A DNA stretch of 46,736 nt, from sequence record MN158208.1; one strand, given 5' to 3'. The notes under the pieces were generated by a model. It was given only the letters and a program-made list of their open reading frames with translations. It searched no databases and was not told where the DNA came from. Source of the stretch: Escherichia phage BEK6. The position numbers and the translations under genes were made by a program. Positions within the stretch are counted from its first letter, which is position 1. Every line of letters starts with the position of its first letter. Below are positions 1 to 46,410 of this stretch, piece by piece.

Positions 1-507
1 ATGAGCAAAGAAGCATTAAAGATGGGTGAGGGAAATTTCAAGGCGCTATACAACAAGAAGTATGGCGATATTGCTATGGTGGCAATCAATCGCAAGTACA
101 CGCCTGAGGAAGTTTTCGATTTCGCTGTTCGATACTTCTCATGGGCTGAGAGTGAGGCAATCAAAGCTATTGAGACGGCAGCTTTCCGGGGCGTTGTTAG
201 TGAAAACCTTGTACACAAGCCGCGAGTGTTCACATTAACCGGGCTGGCGCTATTCATGGGTGTTAACATCAATAGATTCGCACGCTGGCGTACAGAGGCT
301 GGGTACTCTGACGTGATGGAATTCATTGATAACGTAATCTACGAGCAAAAATATCAACTTGGCGTTGCAGGTATTATAAACTCCACAATCGTTGGTAAAG
401 AACTTGGCATTGATAAGCCGCAGGAGATTACCATTAGCAACAACTCCACAGCTAACGACGTTGATAGCATGAAGGAAGCGTTGGAATCCGTTATTAGTAA
501 GCTGTAA
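1..507 (+). CDS. putative terminase small subunit
   Basis: 168-aa ORF beginning at window position 1, directly upstream of the large terminase gene; assigned by position and size only. Confidence 0.5.
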   Translation: MSKEALKMGEGNFKALYNKKYGDIAMVAINRKYTPEEVFDFAVRYFSWAESEAIKAIETAAFRGVVSENLVHKPRVFTLTGLALFMGVNINRFARWRTEAGYSDVMEFIDNVIYEQKYQLGVAGIINSTIVGKELGIDKPQEITISNNSTANDVDSMKEALESVISKL

Positions 508-3559: not shown

Positions 3560-4244
3560 GAGCCAGGTTAACCGCAATCTAAGTATTGCGGTAACTGAGT
3601 TAATTTCAGCAATGAAGGAGTCAGCAACAAGGCTTAAAATTGATAGTGCAGATGACCTTGAGGAGGAGGATGGATACCTTGACGGGGTAATTGCGGCATT
3701 GGTAGCGTCCTTTATATCAAAAATCCCAGCCATAGGGGCGGCGATATACAGATACAATAGCTCGCAATTTCTTGTGCTTGCAATAAAGACCGGAGGAAGG
3801 TCCAATCCTAGCGTTCTGAACCTTGAGGTTAACGGCATCAATGGTGATGAGCTGTGGTATAATGATGACCTAAATCAGTGGATTTACACCACTAATAAGT
3901 CAGCGATTAAATTACTGAATAACATTAAAGATGATTTCTTGCAGACGGCTGCAACAATGCAGAATGGAGATTACGTAAATCTATCTGACAGGTACAAGGT
4001 CTACAGAAAGAGAACAGCAAACATTGCTTCCGGTATTGTTTCAAGTCTGAATTCGACACTTATGAGACGCAGGCTTGAAGATGCTGGTGTTAGCCGTTAC
4101 ATCTGGCATGGCATGCTGGACGATAGGGAGCGCCAATCGCATATAGCGAGAGAGGGCCTTAGCTTTAAACTAGGTGGTAACGATATATTTCCAGGTCAAG
4201 AATACGGTTGTCGTTGCTGGTCGGTTCCAGATTGGGAATCATAA
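3516..4244 (+). CDS. head morphogenesis protein (Mu gpF / SPP1 gp7-like)
   Basis: C-terminal signature DDRERQSHIAREG...GQEYGCRCW typical of Mu F-like minor head proteins; GTG start with GAGGTGA RBS overlapping the portal 3' end (ATG 3612 is an alternative). Confidence 0.65.
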   Translation: MKPVATSWKYPQTIESQVNRNLSIAVTELISAMKESATRLKIDSADDLEEEDGYLDGVIAALVASFISKIPAIGAAIYRYNSSQFLVLAIKTGGRSNPSVLNLEVNGINGDELWYNDDLNQWIYTTNKSAIKLLNNIKDDFLQTAATMQNGDYVNLSDRYKVYRKRTANIASGIVSSLNSTLMRRRLEDAGVSRYIWHGMLDDRERQSHIAREGLSFKLGGNDIFPGQEYGCRCWSVPDWES

Positions 4245-22825: not shown

Positions 22826-22845
22826 TTTAGCAAATAGTGCTATTT
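22826..22845 (-). promoter_or_regulatory. palindrome copy (AAATAGCACTATTTGCTAAA on minus strand) upstream of the Rha-like gene
   Basis: Minus-strand TATATT (forward 22800-22805) 22 bp downstream; about 70-nt leader to ATG 22734. Confidence 0.45.
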
Positions 22846-22966
22846 ATAGCCAATTTCACCACAAATCACAGTTACACGTAACCGATGTAACTCGATGTAT
22901 ACAATCTCATCCGCGGAAAATGATATACGCCCTGTTACGCCAATTTACGCATTAGTTACATTAAAA

Positions 22967-23030
22967 TATCTATATATATCAACATTTTACTCTTATTATT
23001 ATTATTATATATATTACTGTGTATATCATG
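22967..23030. repeat. AT-rich repeat element with (TTA)n tract, copy A
   Basis: ATATCTATATATATCAACATTTTACTCTTATTATTATTATTATATATATTACTGTGTATATC; near-identical copy at 41828-41896. Confidence 0.7.
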
Positions 23031-23255
23031 TAACTACTTCTATAGAGTGTTCCGGTTATAATTTTAATATCATGTGGATTTATACAGTATTGCGTGACAG
23101 CTATACCAATGCACCCCCCCCTGCAAGAAACGGTATACACGATATACACGATGGTTACATTGAGCTATGGCTGGGCTGAGATGCCATTTTACGTAACTAG
23201 TGGCAACACCTACACGGAATTACAAGGATTCACGCGTAAGTTTAAATCAATCTGC

Positions 23256-23284
23256 TTGACATCAATGCGGATTAGTTGTACTAT
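23256..23284 (+). promoter_or_regulatory. candidate sigma70-type promoter for the HNH gene / plus-strand early operon
   Basis: TTGACA (23256-23261), 17-bp spacer, TACTAT (23279-23284). Confidence 0.5.
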
Positions 23285-23314
23285 CAATTAAACAAAACAG
23301 CGGAGGGCTTATTT

Positions 23315-23806
23315 ATGGAATGGGGAGACATCTTTGAATACAGCAACGGAAAGCTTTACTGGAAGATAAGACCAGCAATGAGGATGAGGGTTGGCGACCT
23401 TGCGGGGACGGAATGTAAGGGTTACATTCAAGTTAACTGCAAAGCCAAATCGGGGGTAAATAAACTATATAGGGCGCATAGGATTGTATGGGAAATGCAT
23501 CATGGACCAATACCAGAAGGGGTAGTTATCGACCACATTAATGGGAATGGTCTAGACAACAGGATTGAGAACCTAAGAGTGGTTACGCAAGCAGATAATC
23601 AGAAGAACAAGAAGGTTGGTAAAAACAATGAAAGTGGTGTTCTTGGTGTTGCTTGGTATAAGCCTAGTTCGAAGTGGGTCGCTAGAATATCTAAGGATGG
23701 GAAGTGGTCACATATTGGGTATTTCGATAATTTCGAGGATGCCGTAAGAGCTAGGCGAGAAGCTGAATTAGAATTCAAATATCACGAAAATCACGGGAGA
23801 CGTTAA
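23315..23806 (+). CDS. HNH homing endonuclease with AP2-like DNA-binding domain
   Basis: HNH motif (YRAHRIVWEMHHGPIPEGVVIDHINGNGLDNRIENLR) followed by GVLGVAWYKPSSKWVARI...GYFDNFEDAVRARREAE; GGAGGG RBS, TTGACA-17-TACTAT promoter upstream. Confidence 0.7.
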   Translation: MEWGDIFEYSNGKLYWKIRPAMRMRVGDLAGTECKGYIQVNCKAKSGVNKLYRAHRIVWEMHHGPIPEGVVIDHINGNGLDNRIENLRVVTQADNQKNKKVGKNNESGVLGVAWYKPSSKWVARISKDGKWSHIGYFDNFEDAVRARREAELEFKYHENHGRR

Positions 23807-36455: not shown

Positions 36456-36941
36456 ATGAAGCAGAAGCTGCTAATTAGCGCGGCTACGGCTGCGGCGATA
36501 TACATCGCAGCGCCGCTTATTGAGCTCGTTGAGGGTGTGGAGAATAAGCCTTACATGGACATTGCCGGAATCCCTACAGTTTGTTCCGGTATTACCGGTC
36601 CAGATGTGGTCTGGGGTAAAGCGTACAGCAACAGGGAGTGCCGTAACCTGCTGGAGAAACACATCCAGATTCATGCCAAGTATGTTCAGGATGCGGTTAC
36701 CTACCCAATCGCACCGCAGACAAGGGCAGCGTTAATTAGCTTTAGCTACAATGTTGGTGGTTCTGCCATGAGGAAATCTACTGCCGTTAAGTTAATTAAC
36801 CAGGGTAAGATTGAGCAAGGTTGTAAGGCTTTGGGTCTTTGGAATAAAGTTACCGTTAATGGCAAAAAGGTTGTCGTTAAGGGGTTAGTGAATCGCAGGA
36901 ATGAGGAGATTAAGTTATGCTTAAGCGGATTGCAGCGTTAG
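36456..36941 (+). CDS. SAR endolysin (T4-lysozyme-like muramidase)
   Basis: N-terminal weakly hydrophobic signal-anchor-release-like segment (LLISAATAAAIYIAAPLI) followed by E-x8-D-x5-T catalytic pattern (ELVEGVENKPYMDIAGIPTVCSGIT). Confidence 0.75.
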   Translation: MKQKLLISAATAAAIYIAAPLIELVEGVENKPYMDIAGIPTVCSGITGPDVVWGKAYSNRECRNLLEKHIQIHAKYVQDAVTYPIAPQTRAALISFSYNVGGSAMRKSTAVKLINQGKIEQGCKALGLWNKVTVNGKKVVVKGLVNRRNEEIKLCLSGLQR

Positions 36942-38456: not shown

Positions 38457-40040
38457 TCACCCCAGCAGTCGTGGATTAATGTAAACTTTATCACCAATCA
38501 GGCACGTGTAGTTTTTCTCATCAAGCATTGGCAGCAAGTGGTCTTTAATCTTCGTCATTACTCCCGCTTGAGCCTCGAACGGCTTAACCTTGCGAGCCGC
38601 TTCATATAGCGAACGAATACCTACTACTCCTTTCCCGTTTTTGCCTTGCTTAATCAGGATATCAATCAGCTTATTCATCTCTGCATTGTCGCCAGCGTGA
38701 CCCGCGGCGTTAGCGGATGACAGATAAGTTTTGCTCAACTCCTGGAACATAATTACAGCTTCCTGCATTGTATCAAGCTCAATTTCTCTCGACTTCTGAG
38801 GGCTACCGCCATTTGGGTTGAACCAGTTACGCACAGTGTGAAGGACAGCCGCAATCCTTATTGCCTGCTTATCAAACTTACCAAGCGCGCCGCGCAACAT
38901 TGTGTGTGAATACTTGCCGCCGTCCGCAAGGTGAGGTTCCATTTCCTGACGCGCACGGTTGAGATACTTCATTGCTGAGTTACTAACCGTTAGTTTTACA
39001 TCCTGCTCATTCATGATTTCATGAACAAGACGGAAGTAATCAGCCTTCAACCCTGCATCAATTGGTTCATAAGTCGATTCGCCATTTTCATCAACGAATA
39101 CACGCTCGCCCAGGAATGACTTTTCACGTACAAGCAGGAAACGCTCAGATACACCGATACCACGCGCGCCAGCGTTCATGATAGCGTTGATTGTCTCATC
39201 CTGCGCAATTACAGAGATGCAACCCATAGCGACGAAGCTCATGTTGTTTTCAGCGTTAGCACGAGCGATAGATACGTTGCCAGCATCCCATGCCTTCAGT
39301 ACCAGTTCGCTGTTCGTTTTCTTTGATCCGTCACCATAGGTCATGCCAAGTAGTGAGTTTACACTCGTTGCCTCATCCGAGATTACTGCAAAGTTACCCT
39401 GACGATTGTTTATTCGCGCAAGACCTTCCGGTGTGGTATCTGAAACCGGGAAAACGATATCGCATAGTTTCTCGAGTTTTTCCTCCAACTCCTCTTTCTC
39501 CTCGAAAAGAGAAGCCATCTCTGACGGGGATTTTTCCTGCTTCATCTCTTTGGATAACGCAGATAGTTTAGCCATAATCTTTTTGCGCTCACGCTTTCGC
39601 ACTTCATTCAGTCGAGCAGTTTCAGCAATCATCGGAGCAATTGAAAGTGAGTTGATTGCTGATTTACCAGTCGATGGTGGCTGGCTTGTTACAACATAAA
39701 GCGAAGTCGGTTGCTGCGTTCCGTGATACTCAACAGTAAAACGGCCTAGCATCGCAGCGGAAATACACCCAAGGAAGTGCATGTAAGCTGAAGACTCGGG
39801 GAACTGAACTGAGCGAGCAATATTAGCTGACAGTTTACCAACAACATCAATGTCATTGCCGAGTGAGATCACGGGATACTTGTCATTAGCCGCATCAATC
39901 TCCACCGGTGCTTTCCAGAATGATTGAGACTGGCGATAGCCATTGGCATTAATAGCGACGCGCAGGGGTGGGAGGTTGTCTGCGGCAGCAATTGCCATAA
40001 CCTGTTCAACAGATAGTTTATCTTCGTTGAAATCAAACAT
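38457..40040 (-). CDS. P-loop NTPase-like protein (Walker A/B-like motifs), function unknown
   Basis: 527 aa; Walker A-like QPPSTGKS and Walker B-like FAVISDEAT in the central region; N- and C-terminal segments shared with the 175-aa ORF at 42714-43241. Confidence 0.5.
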   Translation of the reverse strand: MFDFNEDKLSVEQVMAIAAADNLPPLRVAINANGYRQSQSFWKAPVEIDAANDKYPVISLGNDIDVVGKLSANIARSVQFPESSAYMHFLGCISAAMLGRFTVEYHGTQQPTSLYVVTSQPPSTGKSAINSLSIAPMIAETARLNEVRKRERKKIMAKLSALSKEMKQEKSPSEMASLFEEKEELEEKLEKLCDIVFPVSDTTPEGLARINNRQGNFAVISDEATSVNSLLGMTYGDGSKKTNSELVLKAWDAGNVSIARANAENNMSFVAMGCISVIAQDETINAIMNAGARGIGVSERFLLVREKSFLGERVFVDENGESTYEPIDAGLKADYFRLVHEIMNEQDVKLTVSNSAMKYLNRARQEMEPHLADGGKYSHTMLRGALGKFDKQAIRIAAVLHTVRNWFNPNGGSPQKSREIELDTMQEAVIMFQELSKTYLSSANAAGHAGDNAEMNKLIDILIKQGKNGKGVVGIRSLYEAARKVKPFEAQAGVMTKIKDHLLPMLDEKNYTCLIGDKVYINPRLLG

Positions 40041-41470: not shown

Positions 41471-41524
41471 ACCAATCTCCCCGTTGTTGATGAGCTAACT
41501 ATAGCCTGGCCATCCACACATGTC

Positions 41525-41544
41525 TTTAGCAAAAAGTGCTATTC
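41525..41544 (-). promoter_or_regulatory. palindrome copy (AATAGCACTTTTTGCTAAA on minus strand)
   Basis: Minus-strand TATAGT (forward 41498-41503) about 23 bp downstream; first gene of the minus operon starts at 41470. Confidence 0.45.
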
Positions 41545-41827
41545 GTCAGATTTATGGATTGTTGCAGATATTGCAATGATTCACATGACTATTGCACATA
41601 CAGCAATATTGCTTCAGATGCAATGATGTTTTTGATTGTTGCGAAAAGTGAAATGAAGTGGGGAGTGAGTGAATGAAAGATTGATGGACTGCCATACAAG
41701 TTGACTTTACCACTCGATGAGCACCTCACGGATATACGCGTATCCTAAGTATACTCAGTGTCGTCACAAAAGTTAGTGACCACTAACCTACGTTTTTACG
41801 CGAGATATACACACGATATACAATATA

Positions 41828-41896
41828 ATATCTATATATATCAACCTTTTACTTTATTATTATTATTATTATTATATATATGTATACTGTGTATAC
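41828..41896. repeat. AT-rich repeat element with (TTA)n tract, copy B
   Basis: ATATCTATATATATCAACCTTTTACTTTATTATTATTATTATTATTATATATATGTATACTGTGTATACC; same orientation as copy A. Confidence 0.7.
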
Positions 41897-42102
41897 CGAT
41901 CATTGGTGAGATAGTTGATATGTTCCGCGCAGATATTCTGACACTTGTAGGAAAGGGATGACATTGTAGGAATGGATAGGCATGCATGGGGCCTGGTGGG
42001 TAAAAAAAGTGTATACACGGCGTACGCGCAATATACATATAGAGATGATGCGGTGCTAGAGGCAGATTTGCGTATTAGGTGAAAAATATACAAAGAAATA
42101 CT

Positions 42103-42131
42103 TTGACTAACGCGTAAATCTGATGCAATAT
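42103..42131 (+). promoter_or_regulatory. candidate sigma70-type promoter for the 42172 gene cluster
   Basis: TTGACT (42103-42108), 17-bp spacer, CAATAT (42126-42131). Confidence 0.35.
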
Positions 42132-42171
42132 ACCAATCAATGAAACGCAGTACACAACAACGAGGTGACAT

Positions 42172-42714
42172 ATGAATGAAGTAACGCTTGGTGAAGTAAT
42201 CAGGAATATGGTAAGTAAAGCCATGGAGTCCAGCAGTGGTGAGTTTAAGGTTCCTGTAAGGGAAATATTCAAGGTGCTTAGAGGTCGGGATTATCCTGAG
42301 CTCAGGTATGATGTTGAAACTGATGAGATCATCAACCTTAAGGAGCGGTCGATTCCAGAATTGAAGAACTCATACATTTATAATACGGTATCAAGGATGC
42401 CGCAGTTAAGAGCTGCAGGAAAGCATGCTAAGCACAAGATAATCTGGATTGATGATGATGGTGAGCAGACGAGCGCAAAGCAATTCGACGGTGACGGTGC
42501 AGATAAGTATCTTGTAATCCAGATCTGCGATGGTGAACATAAGAAGAGCGAGAGCGCCAGGAGGAAGAGAGATAGCGATGCTGCTGTTATTGAGTCATTC
42601 AAGTCAAGATTAATGAAGGTAGTACCGAGCGTTATGGACTTAGATGGTGAGCAGAAGGTTGGCGCAGAGATTGCTATCGGTAGATTTTATGATTTGATTA
42701 AGGATGCTAAATAA
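42172..42714 (+). CDS. hypothetical protein
   Basis: 180-aa ORF, first plus-strand gene after the 41.5-42.2 kb control region; candidate TTGACT-17-CAATAT promoter upstream. Confidence 0.45.
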   Translation: MNEVTLGEVIRNMVSKAMESSSGEFKVPVREIFKVLRGRDYPELRYDVETDEIINLKERSIPELKNSYIYNTVSRMPQLRAAGKHAKHKIIWIDDDGEQTSAKQFDGDGADKYLVIQICDGEHKKSESARRKRDSDAAVIESFKSRLMKVVPSVMDLDGEQKVGAEIAIGRFYDLIKDAK

Positions 42715-43241
42715 TGTTTGATTTCAACGAAGACAAATTGACTGATGAACAGATTATGAGCATTGCGAAGCAGGATGGAATTCCACCGCTACGGATTGCA
42801 ATCAATGCAAATGGTTATAGGCATGTTCAGCACCTCTGGGGCCAGCCTGACGCATCGGAAGTCTACAGAGATGAAGCGCTGGGAGTTATGATTAAGTTGA
42901 TCAGGAAAATGGCAAGGAACGGCAAGGGCGTGCTTGGCATCAGGTCTTTATACGATGGCGCTCGCAGGGGGAAAAGAATTAATGGTGGCAATGCCGTGCT
43001 GATGGCTCGCATTAAGGATGAGCTCATCCCCGCTCTAGAGGAAATGAATCTCGTTTGCCTAATTGGAGATAAGATTTATGTTCATCCGGCTATCATTGAT
43101 GAGTATTGGCAACCAAACTTCAAAACTTACGAAGGTGAGCACGCTAGTAGACCACCATACCACTTGCGGTACAGCGAGGAAGAGGTGGAGGTGGCGATTG
43201 AGTTCTACCGGAAAGCTAAATCACTCCTGAATGGTGAATAG
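42714..43241 (+). CDS. truncated paralog of the 527-aa NTPase-like protein (N- and C-terminal segments only)
   Basis: Starts MFDFNEDKLTDEQIMSIA...PPLRIAINANGYR and contains NGKGVLGIRSLYDGAR...IKDELIPALEEMNLVCLIGDKIYVHP, matching both ends of the minus-strand 527-aa protein; first 20 nt identical. Confidence 0.5.
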   Translation: MFDFNEDKLTDEQIMSIAKQDGIPPLRIAINANGYRHVQHLWGQPDASEVYRDEALGVMIKLIRKMARNGKGVLGIRSLYDGARRGKRINGGNAVLMARIKDELIPALEEMNLVCLIGDKIYVHPAIIDEYWQPNFKTYEGEHASRPPYHLRYSEEEVEVAIEFYRKAKSLLNGE

Positions 43242-45461: not shown

Positions 45462-45517
45462 CGCAGCCGCCATGTATGGCATACAATCACCACATCAACA
45501 CAACGAGAGATTGAGAA

Positions 45518-45706
45518 ATGAGTTATTCAAAGATTTATGTAGTTTATGGGTATAATATAGGTGACGAAGATTCTATAAGCGTCATCGCATTCCCTAAAAG
45601 GTGTGAAGCTGAGTCATTCGTAAATTCAATGAAATGTAATGATAAGAGAGCATTTGATGAATACGATTTCGAAGAGATTGATTTTGCTGATACAACGAGA
45701 GATTGA
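45518..45706 (+). CDS. hypothetical protein
   Basis: 62-aa ORF downstream of palindrome/TACAAT module; leader ACAACGAGAGATTGAGAAATG. Confidence 0.4.
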   Translation: MSYSKIYVVYGYNIGDEDSISVIAFPKRCEAESFVNSMKCNDKRAFDEYDFEEIDFADTTRD

Positions 45707-45709
45707 GAA

Positions 45710-45949
45710 ATGTTCGGACTAAATGAAGCGATGTTTAACGCGGTAAAGCGCCAGGCTAAAAAGCTCAACGATAAGTATGAGTCACTAAGCAAGCTGGACC
45801 GCAAGAATGATAAGTTGGTTGCTGGTATCATCACTGAGATTTGGCAGCCTGTTTCTACAGTTATCAGTAGGGATCGATTTGTGTGGGTAGCTGGTTACTT
45901 GCGTGGACGAGTGGGTCATGACGAGAATGGGAATAGTCTTTATGAGTGA
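45710..45949 (+). CDS. hypothetical protein
   Basis: 79-aa ORF whose start context duplicates the leader of the preceding gene. Confidence 0.4.
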   Translation: MFGLNEAMFNAVKRQAKKLNDKYESLSKLDRKNDKLVAGIITEIWQPVSTVISRDRFVWVAGYLRGRVGHDENGNSLYE

Positions 45950-46223: not shown

Positions 46224-46301
46224 GCTCTGTTAGCTCAATTGGATAGCAGCAACGACCTTCTAAGTCGTAGGTTACTGGTTCGAATCCAGTGCGGAGCGCC
46301 A
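46224..46301 (+). tRNA. tRNA-Arg (anticodon UCU), with encoded 3' CCA
   Basis: Hand-folded cloverleaf: acceptor GCTCTGT/GCGGAGC, anticodon stem ACGAC/GTCGT with loop CTTCTAA (anticodon TCT), T-arm ACTGG-TTCGAAT-CCAGT, discriminator G then CCA; resembles enterobacterial argU-type tRNA. Confidence 0.75.
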
Positions 46302-46308
46302 AATCAAA

Positions 46309-46410
46309 CGTCGCGTTGCTAATGCTGGCCAAAGGGTGGAGCTTATACCTCCATAAAGCAATCTCCAGATAAGAGATGTAACGCAGGTTCGATTCCTGCC
46401 GCGACGACCA
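46309..46410 (+). ncRNA. tRNA-like element (non-canonical length; possibly a class II tRNA or degenerate tRNA)
   Basis: Perfect 7-bp acceptor pairing CGTCGCG/CGCGACG, canonical T-arm GCAGG-TTCGATT-CCTGC, discriminator A and CCA, D-loop-like GGCCAAAGGG, but ~99 nt with two candidate anticodon hairpins. Confidence 0.3.

What the first reader, a model, noticed from the sequence alone, without database searches (positions are those of the whole stretch)
41550..41650. Iteron-like clusters of short repeats inside the two control regions
Between 41561 and 41650 the pentamer TTGCA/TGCAA recurs at least 6 times in both orientations within about 90 bp (attgttgcagatattgcaatgattcacatgactattgcacatacagcaatattgcttcagatgcaatgatg). 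The other control region (22860-22960 and 23200-23220) carries repeated GTTAC(A/G)/TTACG units (gttacacgtaacc, gtaact, gttacgcc, ttacgc, gttaca). Such arrays are typical of binding sites for replication initiators or transcription regulators.
Basis: seen in the sequence. Interest (0 to 1): 0.45.

Follow-up and report, generated by a model that had tools for sequence, protein, structure and literature searches.

The report
Packaging start site of T1-like phage
The short TTGCA repeats are really four conserved 15-bp mirror-image sites lying 30-120 bp before the point where relatives of this T1/Rtp-like phage make the first cut for DNA packaging, so they most likely mark the packaging (pac) site, not a replication origin; this is an ordinary feature, here resolved to motif level.

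Summary
The window is a Drexlerviridae (Rtp/T1-like) phage genome. The quoted sequence is present, but the exact pentamer TTGCA/TGCAA occurs 5 times (4 loci), not 6 or more, and that count is not unusual (41% of simulated genomes). The real unit is a dyad, TTGCW-N5-WGCAA. Four copies lie at 41562-41653, spaced 30/17/30 bp. Across 13 phages of four lineages the half-sites are conserved and the spacer length never changes, while the spacer sequence varies. T1 has two such dyads 30 bp apart at position 1 of its record.

Four independent end determinations in relatives (PhageTerm for MSK, TR1 and UDF157lw; the Rao1 record boundary) map to window 41684-41692, 38 bp right of the last dyad. Packaging runs rightward towards terS (P22 gp3 family).

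Best reading: pac recognition array (confidence about 0.6). The rival is an operator array for the factor that binds the known 21-nt promoter repeat, which shares the GCA-N5-TGC skeleton.

The GTTAC cluster in the other control region is real (5 per 100 bp; 0 of 500 simulations) and recurs in T1. It flanks one of the two most AT-rich spots of the genome. The two regions are paralogous. Their function (origin or early control) is unresolved.

The parts
1..507 (+). terS, small terminase of the P22 gp3 family; candidate binder of the dyad array, 5.05 kb downstream of the cut in the packaging direction
   Evidence: PHROG phrog_606 E=4e-56. Pfam PF16677 GP3_package 49.5 bits against a cut-off of 29.4. 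tblastn to P22 gene 3 gives 27% identity, E=1e-11.
41498..41543 (-). Leftward promoter of the phage-specific type: the 21-nt repeat element (41525-41543 on the + strand, palindrome TAGCA-N5-TGCTA) and a -10-like TATAGT (41498-41503)
   Evidence: One of 18 copies found genome-wide. Promoter scan gives AAGACA-17-TATAGT. The same 21-nt element is described in TLS (PMC11447400).
41548..41555 (+). AGATTTAT, identical to 8 contiguous bases of the P22 pac core; conserved as GATTTAT in all Rtp-, Rogue- and Nouzilly-like relatives but not in T1
   Evidence: P22 pac sequence as quoted in PMC11447400. Only about 11 of 22 positions match overall, and my estimate of the chance of an 8-mer match is about 0.1.
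41562..41576 (.). Dyad D1, TTGCA-gatat-TGCAA
   Evidence: Conserved with a fixed 5-bp spacer in 13 phages.
41592..41606 (.). Dyad D2, TTGCA-catac-AGCAA
41609..41623 (.). Dyad D3, TTGCT-tcaga-TGCAA. D2 and D3 meet in the palindrome AGCAATATTGCT (41602-41613), the symmetry centre of the array. Position 1 of the Rtp record is 41602 and position 1 of the T1 record aligns to about 41608.
41639..41653 (.). Dyad D4, TTGCG-aaaag-TGAAA. The right half is degenerate in this phage; most relatives have AGCAA or TGCAA.
   Evidence: e.g. TTGCGGATTGAGCAA in Rtp and TTGCAGAATTTGCAA in TR1.
41557..41565 (+). GATTGTTGC, first of two direct copies; the second is at 41634-41642. T1 also has it twice, flanking position 1 of its record.
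   Evidence: 4 exact copies in the genome, 2 of them here..
41660..41679 (+). Conserved purine-rich block GGGGAGTGAGTGAATGAAAG between the last dyad and the cut. TLS has GAGTAGTGAGTGAGTAG in the same place.
41684..41693 (+). Predicted zone of the first (pac) cut, ATGGACTGCC, with packaging running rightward
   Evidence: Four determinations in relatives map here. TR1 PhageTerm site 3,615 (PMC10450929; the GenBank CDS note reads 'initial packaging site'). The Rao1 record ends one base before it. UDF157lw, whose record was re-ordered by PhageTerm, starts one base after it. MSK PhageTerm site 36,862, forward strand, lies 8 bp further on.
41731..42102 (.). Right-hand module of this control region, paralogous to the other control region. 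It has an inverted repeat GATATACGCGTATC, 14 TATAC/GTATA hits, and the genome's most AT-rich 80 bp (41816-41895, 12% GC) with (TTA)n(TA)n.
42103..42132 (+). Sigma-70-like promoter TTGACT-18-(TG)cAATATA for the rightward early operon, which starts with the DUF7174 gene at 42172
   Evidence: Read from the sequence. Not listed by the consensus scan. DUF7174 identified.
22871..23197 (.). GTTAC/GTAAC array of the other control region: 8 copies, including the inverted repeat GTTAC-ac-GTAAC at 22871-22882. It flanks the AT-rich core 22965-23026 (15% GC).
   Evidence: Conserved at 80-94% identity in 133 phage records. T1's equivalent gap has 8 GTTAC/GTAAC in 528 bp.
23256..23284 (+). Sigma-70 promoter-like site TTGACA-17-TACTAT for the rightward recombination operon
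   Evidence: 10 of 12 matches.

Best explanation
The cluster at 41557-41658 is the recognition part of the phage's pac site. Four 15-bp dyads (TTGCW-N5-WGCAA), with centres at 41569, 41599, 41616 and 41646, act as an assembly platform for a multimeric DNA-binding protein. That protein is most likely the small terminase, which is of the P22 gp3 family. It positions the large terminase to make the first, sequence-directed cut about 38 bp to the right of the last dyad, near 41684. From there headful packaging runs rightward through the early genes and the terminase genes.

Shown: the anatomy of the array, its conservation, its restriction to this control region, and the mapping of physical ends in relatives. 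Inferred: which protein binds the dyads, and that the dyads are required for the cut.
For: 1) The window is an Rtp/T1-like phage. T1-like phages package by pac-initiated headfuls (PMC11447400).

2) Four independent end determinations in relatives converge on window 41684-41692: TR1 3,615, the Rao1 record boundary, UDF157lw position 1 and MSK 36,862 on the forward strand. The older T1 and Rtp records start inside the array. T1 annotates 1-2800 as the terminal repeat.

3) The 41520-41645 block is the best-conserved part of the region, with 0.90-0.96 column identity against 0.6-0.8 further right. Motif columns score 0.967 and spacer columns 0.855. In many phages only this block gives a blastn match, while the flanks do not.

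4) Dyad spacer length is invariant and spacer sequence is free in 13 phages.

5) T1, otherwise diverged, has 3 of its 6 genomic TTGC-N7-GCAA matches in its first 180 bp. Two of them are 30 bp apart at position 1 (1.4 expected genome-wide).

6) The array is absent from the paralogous control region, which also has a leftward promoter of the same type. It therefore tracks the pac end, not the promoter.

7) The distance from the leftward promoter varies between lineages. T1 has about 85 bp of other sequence between them and a second promoter repeat on the far side.

8) terS is present and belongs to a pac-recognising family.
Against: No read-level end data exist for this phage itself, so the cut is placed by homology. 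No binding data exist. The homologous P22 small terminase recognises an asymmetric 22-bp site, not dyads.

The dyads share the GCA-N5-TGC skeleton and 4 of 5 half-site positions with the promoter-associated palindrome TAGCA-N5-TGCTA. A transcription factor could therefore be the binder.

In T1 the RTTGC density at the end is not the genome maximum. TLS has no TTGC dyads at its mapped end and carries other repeats there. Starts of GenBank records are partly copied from earlier records.
Confidence: 0.6

Rival explanations
1. The dyads are an operator or enhancer array for the dimeric factor that binds the 21-nt promoter repeat (palindrome TAGCA-N5-TGCTA, centred at -42 of 18 phage promoters). 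They would tune the leftward promoter at 41498-41543 or titrate the factor. Their position next to the packaging cut would be incidental.
For: Dyads and the promoter palindrome have the same GCA-N5-TGC skeleton and the same 5-bp spacer. The two best matches of the repeat profile in the region are dyads D1 and D4, within roughly the top 0.1% of genome positions. The array starts 35 bp upstream of the promoter's own repeat. Dyad symmetry is typical of helix-turn-helix dimers. Candidate regulators are encoded: a Cro-like helix-turn-helix protein, a Rha-like protein and a winged-helix protein.
Against: The profile scores are very poor: -2.5 bits against at least 25.3 for every true copy. The paralogous control region has the same type of leftward promoter and no dyads. 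The distance and the intervening sequence between promoter and dyads differ between T1, Rtp and this phage. None of the other 17 promoters has such an array.
Confidence: 0.2
2. The repeats are iterons of a replication origin bound by a phage initiator.
For: The origin of T1-like phages is unknown (PMC11447400; PMC7718038). The genome's most AT-rich stretch lies 160 bp to the right. A DUF3987 helicase with a C-terminal winged helix, and a winged-helix-only paralog, are encoded nearby.
Against: The units are inverted 15-bp dyads, not direct 17-22 bp repeats. The array is missing from the paralogous AT-rich region. The AT-rich core has its own, different flanking repeats (TATACA, GTTACA). Physical ends map next to the array, which a pac site explains directly.
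Confidence: 0.07
3. There are no binding sites. The conservation reflects a small protein-coding gene (41536-41676, annotated as a CDS in TR1) or a structured RNA.
For: A 46-codon ORF spans the array, and TR1 and Opt-79 annotate CDSs there. RNAalifold draws hairpins from the inverted motifs.
Against: The ORF is cut to 9-15 codons in Rtp, phiA2-1, JeanPiccard and AHP42. RNAalifold's covariation term is unfavourable (+0.98), and changes break pairs instead of compensating. There is no Rfam hit.
Confidence: 0.03

Closest known systems
pac region of T1-like phages (T1 left end; TR1 'initial packaging site'; PhageTerm starts of MSK and UDF157lw)
   Same: The sequence block is homologous at 77-96% identity. 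It has the same position between the leftward small-gene block and the rightward DUF7174 operon, about 5 kb upstream of terS. Packaging direction is the same.
   Different: None of those reports defines the recognition motif. TR1 places the site inside a doubtful ORF. The TLS paper proposes AGATTT by analogy with P22. A paper on the Rtp-like phage MSK, citing the Rtp genome paper, reports that ATATA repeats were proposed for T1. I could not read the T1 or Rtp papers themselves. The dyad array described here is a new level of detail.
Phage P1 pac site (clusters of short hexanucleotide repeats on both sides of the cut) and SPP1 pacL/pacC/pacR (from my own knowledge)
   Same: Several short repeated elements lie within about 150 bp of a defined first cut in a headful-packaging phage. 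The site lies outside the region of the cut itself.
   Different: P1 uses Dam-methylated TGATCA/G hexamers. SPP1 uses direct boxes and bent DNA, and its site overlaps terS. Here the units are 15-bp dyads with 30/17/30 spacing, all on one side of the cut and far from terS.
Phage P22 pac (22-bp asymmetric site inside gene 3)
   Same: The small terminase is homologous (PF16677). An 8-bp identity, AGATTTAT, lies at 41548-41555, next to the array.
   Different: The site is not inside terS. Only about 11 of 22 positions match. T1 lacks the octamer. The dyads have no counterpart in P22.
21-nt direct repeat of T1-like phages (aaATAGCACnnnTTGnTAAAA; PMC11447400)
   Same: It has a GCA-N5-TGC palindromic skeleton and the same phage family. 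One true copy (41525-41543) directly abuts the array.
   Different: The array units fail the profile of the 18 genomic copies. They are not followed by a -10-like element and are clustered, not spread one per operon.
Phage P4 ori/crr (two separate iteron regions bound by the winged-helix domain of the alpha primase-helicase; from my own knowledge). This comparison concerns the GTTAC and TATACA arrays, not the TTGCA array.
   Same: Two distant paralogous non-coding regions carry short repeats around AT-rich DNA. The phage encodes a P4-alpha-like primase and an SF3-type helicase with a C-terminal winged helix. TLS carries GTGAACA/TGTTCAC repeats in both regions.
   Different: No sequence or fold match specific to the P4 domain was obtained; only a generic winged helix was found. 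The winged-helix recognition helix does not vary in step with the repeat motif. No replication data exist.

Membership tests
pac site of a headful-packaging phage | The phage encodes small and large terminase of a headful type | tested here: met
   terS: phrog_606 E=4e-56 and PF16677 above its cut-off. The ORF next to it (614-2242, 542 aa) sits where relatives have the large terminase; I did not scan it. Relatives are shown to package by headful.
pac site of a headful-packaging phage | A preferred physical end of virion DNA maps at or next to the element | tested here: met
   Met by homology only. Four determinations in relatives map to window 41684-41692. No reads are available for this phage.
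pac site of a headful-packaging phage | The small terminase binds the element specifically | not testable with these tools
   Needs EMSA or footprinting.
pac site of a headful-packaging phage | The element is sufficient to direct packaging or transduction of foreign DNA | not testable with these tools
   Needs a plasmid transduction assay.
Replication-origin iterons (lambda or plasmid type) | Three or more direct repeats of about 17-22 bp in one orientation with regular spacing | tested here: not met
   The TTGCA units form inverted 15-bp dyads. The repeat finder reports no direct-repeat family there. The GTTAC units are 5-6 bp long and occur in both orientations.
Replication-origin iterons (lambda or plasmid type) | An AT-rich unwinding element directly adjacent | tested here: inconclusive
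   For the TTGCA array the AT-rich core starts about 160 bp away. For the GTTAC array this feature is met: the repeats flank the 15% GC core.
Replication-origin iterons (lambda or plasmid type) | A cognate initiator is identified and linked to the repeats | tested here: inconclusive
   A winged-helix domain is present on the DUF3987 helicase and on a paralog. No covariation with the repeat motif was seen.
21-nt promoter repeat of T1-like phages | Match to the profile of the genomic copies, followed by a -10-like element about 22 bp downstream | tested here: not met
   Best score in the array is -2.5 bits against at least 25.3 bits for the 18 copies. No -10-like element follows the dyads.
P22-type pac sequence | Match to the 22-bp P22 pac, located inside terS | tested here: not met
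   Eight contiguous identities, about 11 of 22 overall. The location is 5 kb from terS.
Operator array of a dimeric regulator | Dyad-symmetric sites with a fixed spacer and conserved half-sites | tested here: met
   This describes the architecture and does not identify the protein.

The most novel reading that the evidence does not exclude
The two paralogous control regions are the long-sought replication origins of T1-like phages, working as a pair like P4 ori and crr. Each contains one of the two most AT-rich spots of the genome, flanked by lineage-specific short repeats: GTTACA and TATACA in this phage and T1, GTGAACA in TLS. In addition, the pac dyads and the 18 promoter palindromes, which share a GCA-N5-TGC skeleton, would be read by one phage protein or by paralogous proteins. 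That would couple late transcription to the start of packaging.
Probability: 0.15. Interest if true: 0.6.

Novelty: new member of a known kind. Interest (0 to 1): 0.33.

Why it matters
T1-like phages are common laboratory and fermentation contaminants, candidates for phage therapy, and generalized transducers. Their pac site has so far been placed only to a region. Published motif proposals disagree: AGATTT for TLS and, as relayed by the MSK paper, ATATA repeats for T1.

A defined four-dyad array with a cut 38 bp away gives a directly testable recognition model. It also gives a rational anchor for ordering Drexlerviridae genome records, and a handle for building packageable vectors or predicting transduction hot spots.

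The by-product is a concrete candidate for the unknown replication origin of the family: two paralogous AT-rich modules with conserved GTTACA and TATACA repeats.

Tried and rejected
1) Literal pentamer enrichment. The count of 5 is reached in 41% of simulated genomes, so I rejected it as evidence.

2) Coding ORF 41536-41676. It is broken in four relatives.

3) Structured RNA. No covariation and no Rfam family.

4) The array as copies of the 21-nt promoter repeat. It fails the profile.

6) Covariation of the winged-helix recognition helix with the GTTACA or GTGAACA repeats. No simple pattern.

7) Search of lambda 38.0-45.5 kb for a T1 pac-like site, the 'esp' site that I recall only from memory. 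One 13-nt exact match lies in gene P (39898-39910), but there is no dyad and no array. I treat it as probably chance.

8) RTTGC density as a universal marker. It is not the genome maximum in T1, and TLS has no TTGC dyads.

9) The original T1 and Rtp genome papers could not be read.

10) GC-skew analysis was uninformative, because both regions are points where the transcribed strand switches.

Full report
**What the window is.** Megablast places the window in Drexlerviridae, subfamily Braunvirinae (Rtp-like). It is 83-91% identical over long stretches to the BEK, vB_EcoS-12xxx, 2725-N35 and T145P1 phages. The window starts at the small terminase gene: ORF 1-507, phrog_606 at E=4e-56, Pfam GP3_package above its cut-off, and 27% identity to P22 gene 3.

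The finding lies in a 630-bp non-coding gap (41544-42171). On its left is a block of small leftward genes. On its right is a rightward operon that begins with a DUF7174 gene at 42172. The 'other control region' is a similar 470-bp gap (22845-23315). It lies between a leftward Rha-like gene and a rightward operon that, as annotated in the relative BEK3, carries the exonuclease and recombinase genes. The two gaps are paralogous over about 400 bp. They share AATATCTATATATATCAAC-TTTTACT-(TTA)n(TA)n-TACTGTGTATA, GTATACACG and ACGCGTAA. The TTGCA block has no counterpart in the other gap.

**Checking the observation.** The quoted string is there. The exact pentamer TTGCA/TGCAA occurs 5 times at 4 loci, not 6 or more. 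This is the genome maximum for a 90-100 bp window, yet 41% of 500 first-order Markov genomes reach 5.

A better unit emerges from the alignment. RTTGC/GCAAY occurs 8 times in 100 bp, and 0 of 500 simulations reach that. These resolve into four 15-bp dyads, TTGCW-N5-WGCAA:
- 41562-41576
- 41592-41606
- 41609-41623
- 41639-41653

The right half of the fourth dyad is degenerate in this phage. The centres are 30, 17 and 30 bp apart, symmetric about the palindrome AGCAATATTGCT. TTGC-N7-GCAA has 6 matches in the genome against 2.05 expected, and three of them are in this array.

The GTTAC claim holds: 5 GTTAC/GTAAC in 100 bp (0 of 500 simulations) and 8 in the 472-bp gap, seven times the genome rate. 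The units lie at 23154, 23189-23197 and 23235.

**Conservation.** The block 41515-41700 is found in 133 phage records at 76-96% identity. In many of them it is the only part of the gap that gives a match. I aligned 13 phages from Braunvirinae, Rogunavirinae, Nouzillyvirus and T1.
- Column identity is 0.90-0.96 across 41520-41645 and falls to 0.6-0.8 further right.
- Motif columns score 0.967 and spacer columns 0.855.
- No phage has an insertion or deletion inside any dyad, while spacer sequences differ. For D4 the spacers include GGATT, CAGTT, AGAAT, GAAAT and GAAAA.

This is the signature of a site read by a symmetric protein. T1, which is otherwise diverged here, has TTGCAtggtgTGCAA at 2-16 and TTGCTtagaaTGCAA at 32-46, again 30 bp apart, and a third dyad at 165. 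That makes 3 of its 6 genomic matches, against 1.4 expected genome-wide and 0 of 100 shuffles reaching 6.

The ORF across the array is truncated to 9-15 codons in four relatives. RNAalifold shows no supporting covariation. The conservation is therefore at the DNA level.

**What it sits next to.** Several GenBank records of relatives begin or end inside or just after the array. Four of these can be tied to end determination.
- The TR1 paper reports a PhageTerm headful packaging site at 3,615. The GenBank record labels the overlapping CDS 'the initial packaging site of the headful packaging mechanism'. It maps to gtgg|ATGGAC.
- The Rao1 record ends at exactly that junction.
- The UDF157lw record was re-ordered according to PhageTerm and starts one base later.
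- The MSK paper reports a forward-strand start at 36,862, 8 bp further on.

In window coordinates all four fall at 41684-41692, 38 bp right of the centre of the last dyad.

The older T1 and Rtp records start inside the array, at about 41608 and at 41602. T1 annotates 1-2800 as the terminal repeat. The TLS paper mapped its pac site by restriction analysis to the same kind of gap and proposed AGATTT by analogy with P22. This window has AGATTTAT at 41548-41555, directly left of the first dyad. That is an 8-bp identity with the P22 pac core, but only about 11 of 22 positions match overall.

**Mechanism proposed.** The dyad array, perhaps together with the AGATTTAT octamer and the conserved purine block 41660-41679, is the recognition part of pac. 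The small terminase, or a factor that recruits it, assembles on the four dyads. The large terminase then cuts near 41684. Packaging proceeds rightward through the early genes, the tRNA and the terminase genes, followed by headful cuts.

Shown: anatomy, conservation, restriction to this control region, and end mapping in relatives. Inferred: the identity of the binding protein, and that the dyads are necessary. Confidence is about 0.6 that the dyads are the pac recognition element, and higher that this block is the pac region.

**Main rival.** The phage has 18 copies of a 21-nt element (AAATAGCACGAATTGCTAAA). Each lies about 22 bp upstream of a -10-like TATAGT, in the direction of transcription. 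TLS authors described the same element and left its function open. Its core is a palindrome, TAGCA-N5-TGCTA, centred at about -42. This is the position typical of an activator that replaces the -35 element; that reading is my inference.

The pac dyads share its GCA-N5-TGC skeleton and 4 of 5 half-site positions. The same factor, or a related one, could therefore bind them and control the leftward promoter at 41498-41543. Four points argue against this:
- The dyads score -2.5 bits on the element's profile, against at least 25.3 bits for every true copy.
- The paralogous gap has the same type of leftward promoter and no dyads.
- No other promoter of this type has such an array.
- The promoter-to-dyad distance differs between T1, Rtp and this phage.

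**The other cluster.** GTTAC/GTAAC units (GTTACA is the most enriched hexamer) flank the AT-rich core of the other gap. The same motif is enriched in T1's equivalent gap, with 8 GTTAC/GTAAC in 528 bp and GTTACA 7 times against 0.19 expected. Yet T1's gap was not among the blastn matches to this one. ESCO41 has 9 copies and AHP42 has 6. TLS has none and instead carries GTGAACA and GGAACA in both of its gaps. TATACA is the top enriched hexamer in the right-hand part of the pac-side gap in both this phage and T1 (8 against 0.23 expected; 7 against 0.10). The AT-rich cores of the two gaps are the two most AT-rich 80-bp windows of the whole genome, at 12% and 15% GC.

This fits an origin-like or early-control module present twice. 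The origin of T1-like phages is reported as not found.

**Novelty and verdict.** That T1-like phages start packaging in this gap is known. The motif-level anatomy was not described in any paper I could read. This includes the four fixed-spacer dyads at 30/17/30 spacing, the cut 38 bp away, the counterpart at position 1 of T1, and the similarity to the promoter palindrome. Published motif proposals differ (AGATTT; ATATA repeats as relayed). I file the finding as a new member of a known kind.

Noticed in passing
window, 18 sites, e.g. 15544, 25195, 33192, 33526, 44052, 45442 (+); 22066, 22825, 37558, 38099, 40878, 41524 (-): A 21-nt element AAATAGCACGAATTGCTAAA (palindrome TAGCA-N5-TGCTA) lies about 22 bp upstream of a -10-like TATAGT. 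It is always oriented with the downstream genes, and its centre is at about -42. Small GC-rich hairpins often sit in the spacer. The element is known from TLS as a repeat of unknown function. The geometry suggests an activator site that replaces the -35 element.
   Followed up: partly
window 22965-23026 and 41816-41895: The two most AT-rich 80-bp windows of the genome (15% and 12% GC) are paralogous cores with a (TTA)n(TA)n microsatellite of different length in the two copies. T1 and TLS have matching pairs with their own lineage-specific flanking repeats.
   Followed up: partly
window 42714-43241 (+) versus 38457-40040 (-): The 175-aa ORF is a truncated paralog of the 527-aa DUF3987 helicase. 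It keeps the first ~45 residues (the DNA of the two genes is 83% similar over 58 nt) and the C-terminal winged-helix domain, and lacks the ATPase core. It is the second gene of the operon next to pac, and 323 homologs were found. It could regulate or compete with the helicase's DNA binding.
   Followed up: partly
L026 (lambda NC_001416) 39898-39910, inside gene P: There is a 13-nt exact match (TTGTTGCATGGTG) to T1 positions -2 to +11, the first half-dyad plus spacer at the start of the T1 record (E about 0.02 in a 7.5-kb search). From memory, T1 can start packaging lambda DNA at a site mapped between P and Q. There is no full dyad or array here, so the match may be chance.
   Followed up: partly
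L020 760-830 (TLS 49759-49829): TLS has a tandem pair of perfect 14-bp palindromes (AGACCGATTGGTCT twice) directly after its leftward promoter repeat. It occupies the position that the TTGC dyads occupy in Rtp-like phages. Runs of GATTG/GATTT follow, up to position 1 of the record.
   Followed up: no
window 71-85: One of the three TTGC-N7-GCAA matches outside the array (TTGCTATGGTGGCAA) lies inside terS. P22-type phages carry their pac site there. This is probably chance.
   Followed up: no
window 46224-46407: tRNA-Arg(TCT) lies at 46224-46301. Rfam reports a second tRNA-like match at 46309-46407 (39.3 bits, 99 nt) that ARAGORN does not call. It could be an intron-containing or degenerate tRNA.
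   Followed up: no
window 45500-45520 and 45692-45712: A perfect 21-nt direct repeat ACAACGAGAGATTGAGAAATG, 192 bp apart. It looks like a duplicated ribosome-binding site plus start codon of neighbouring small genes.
   Followed up: no
window 22871-22882 and 41731-41745: The left edges of the two paralogous modules carry related inverted repeats: GTTAC-ac-GTAAC in one and GATAC-gc-GTATC (within GATATACGCGTATCC) in the other. Relatives have TACACGTAAC at the second position. The sites look like paired operators with slightly different half-sites.
   Followed up: no
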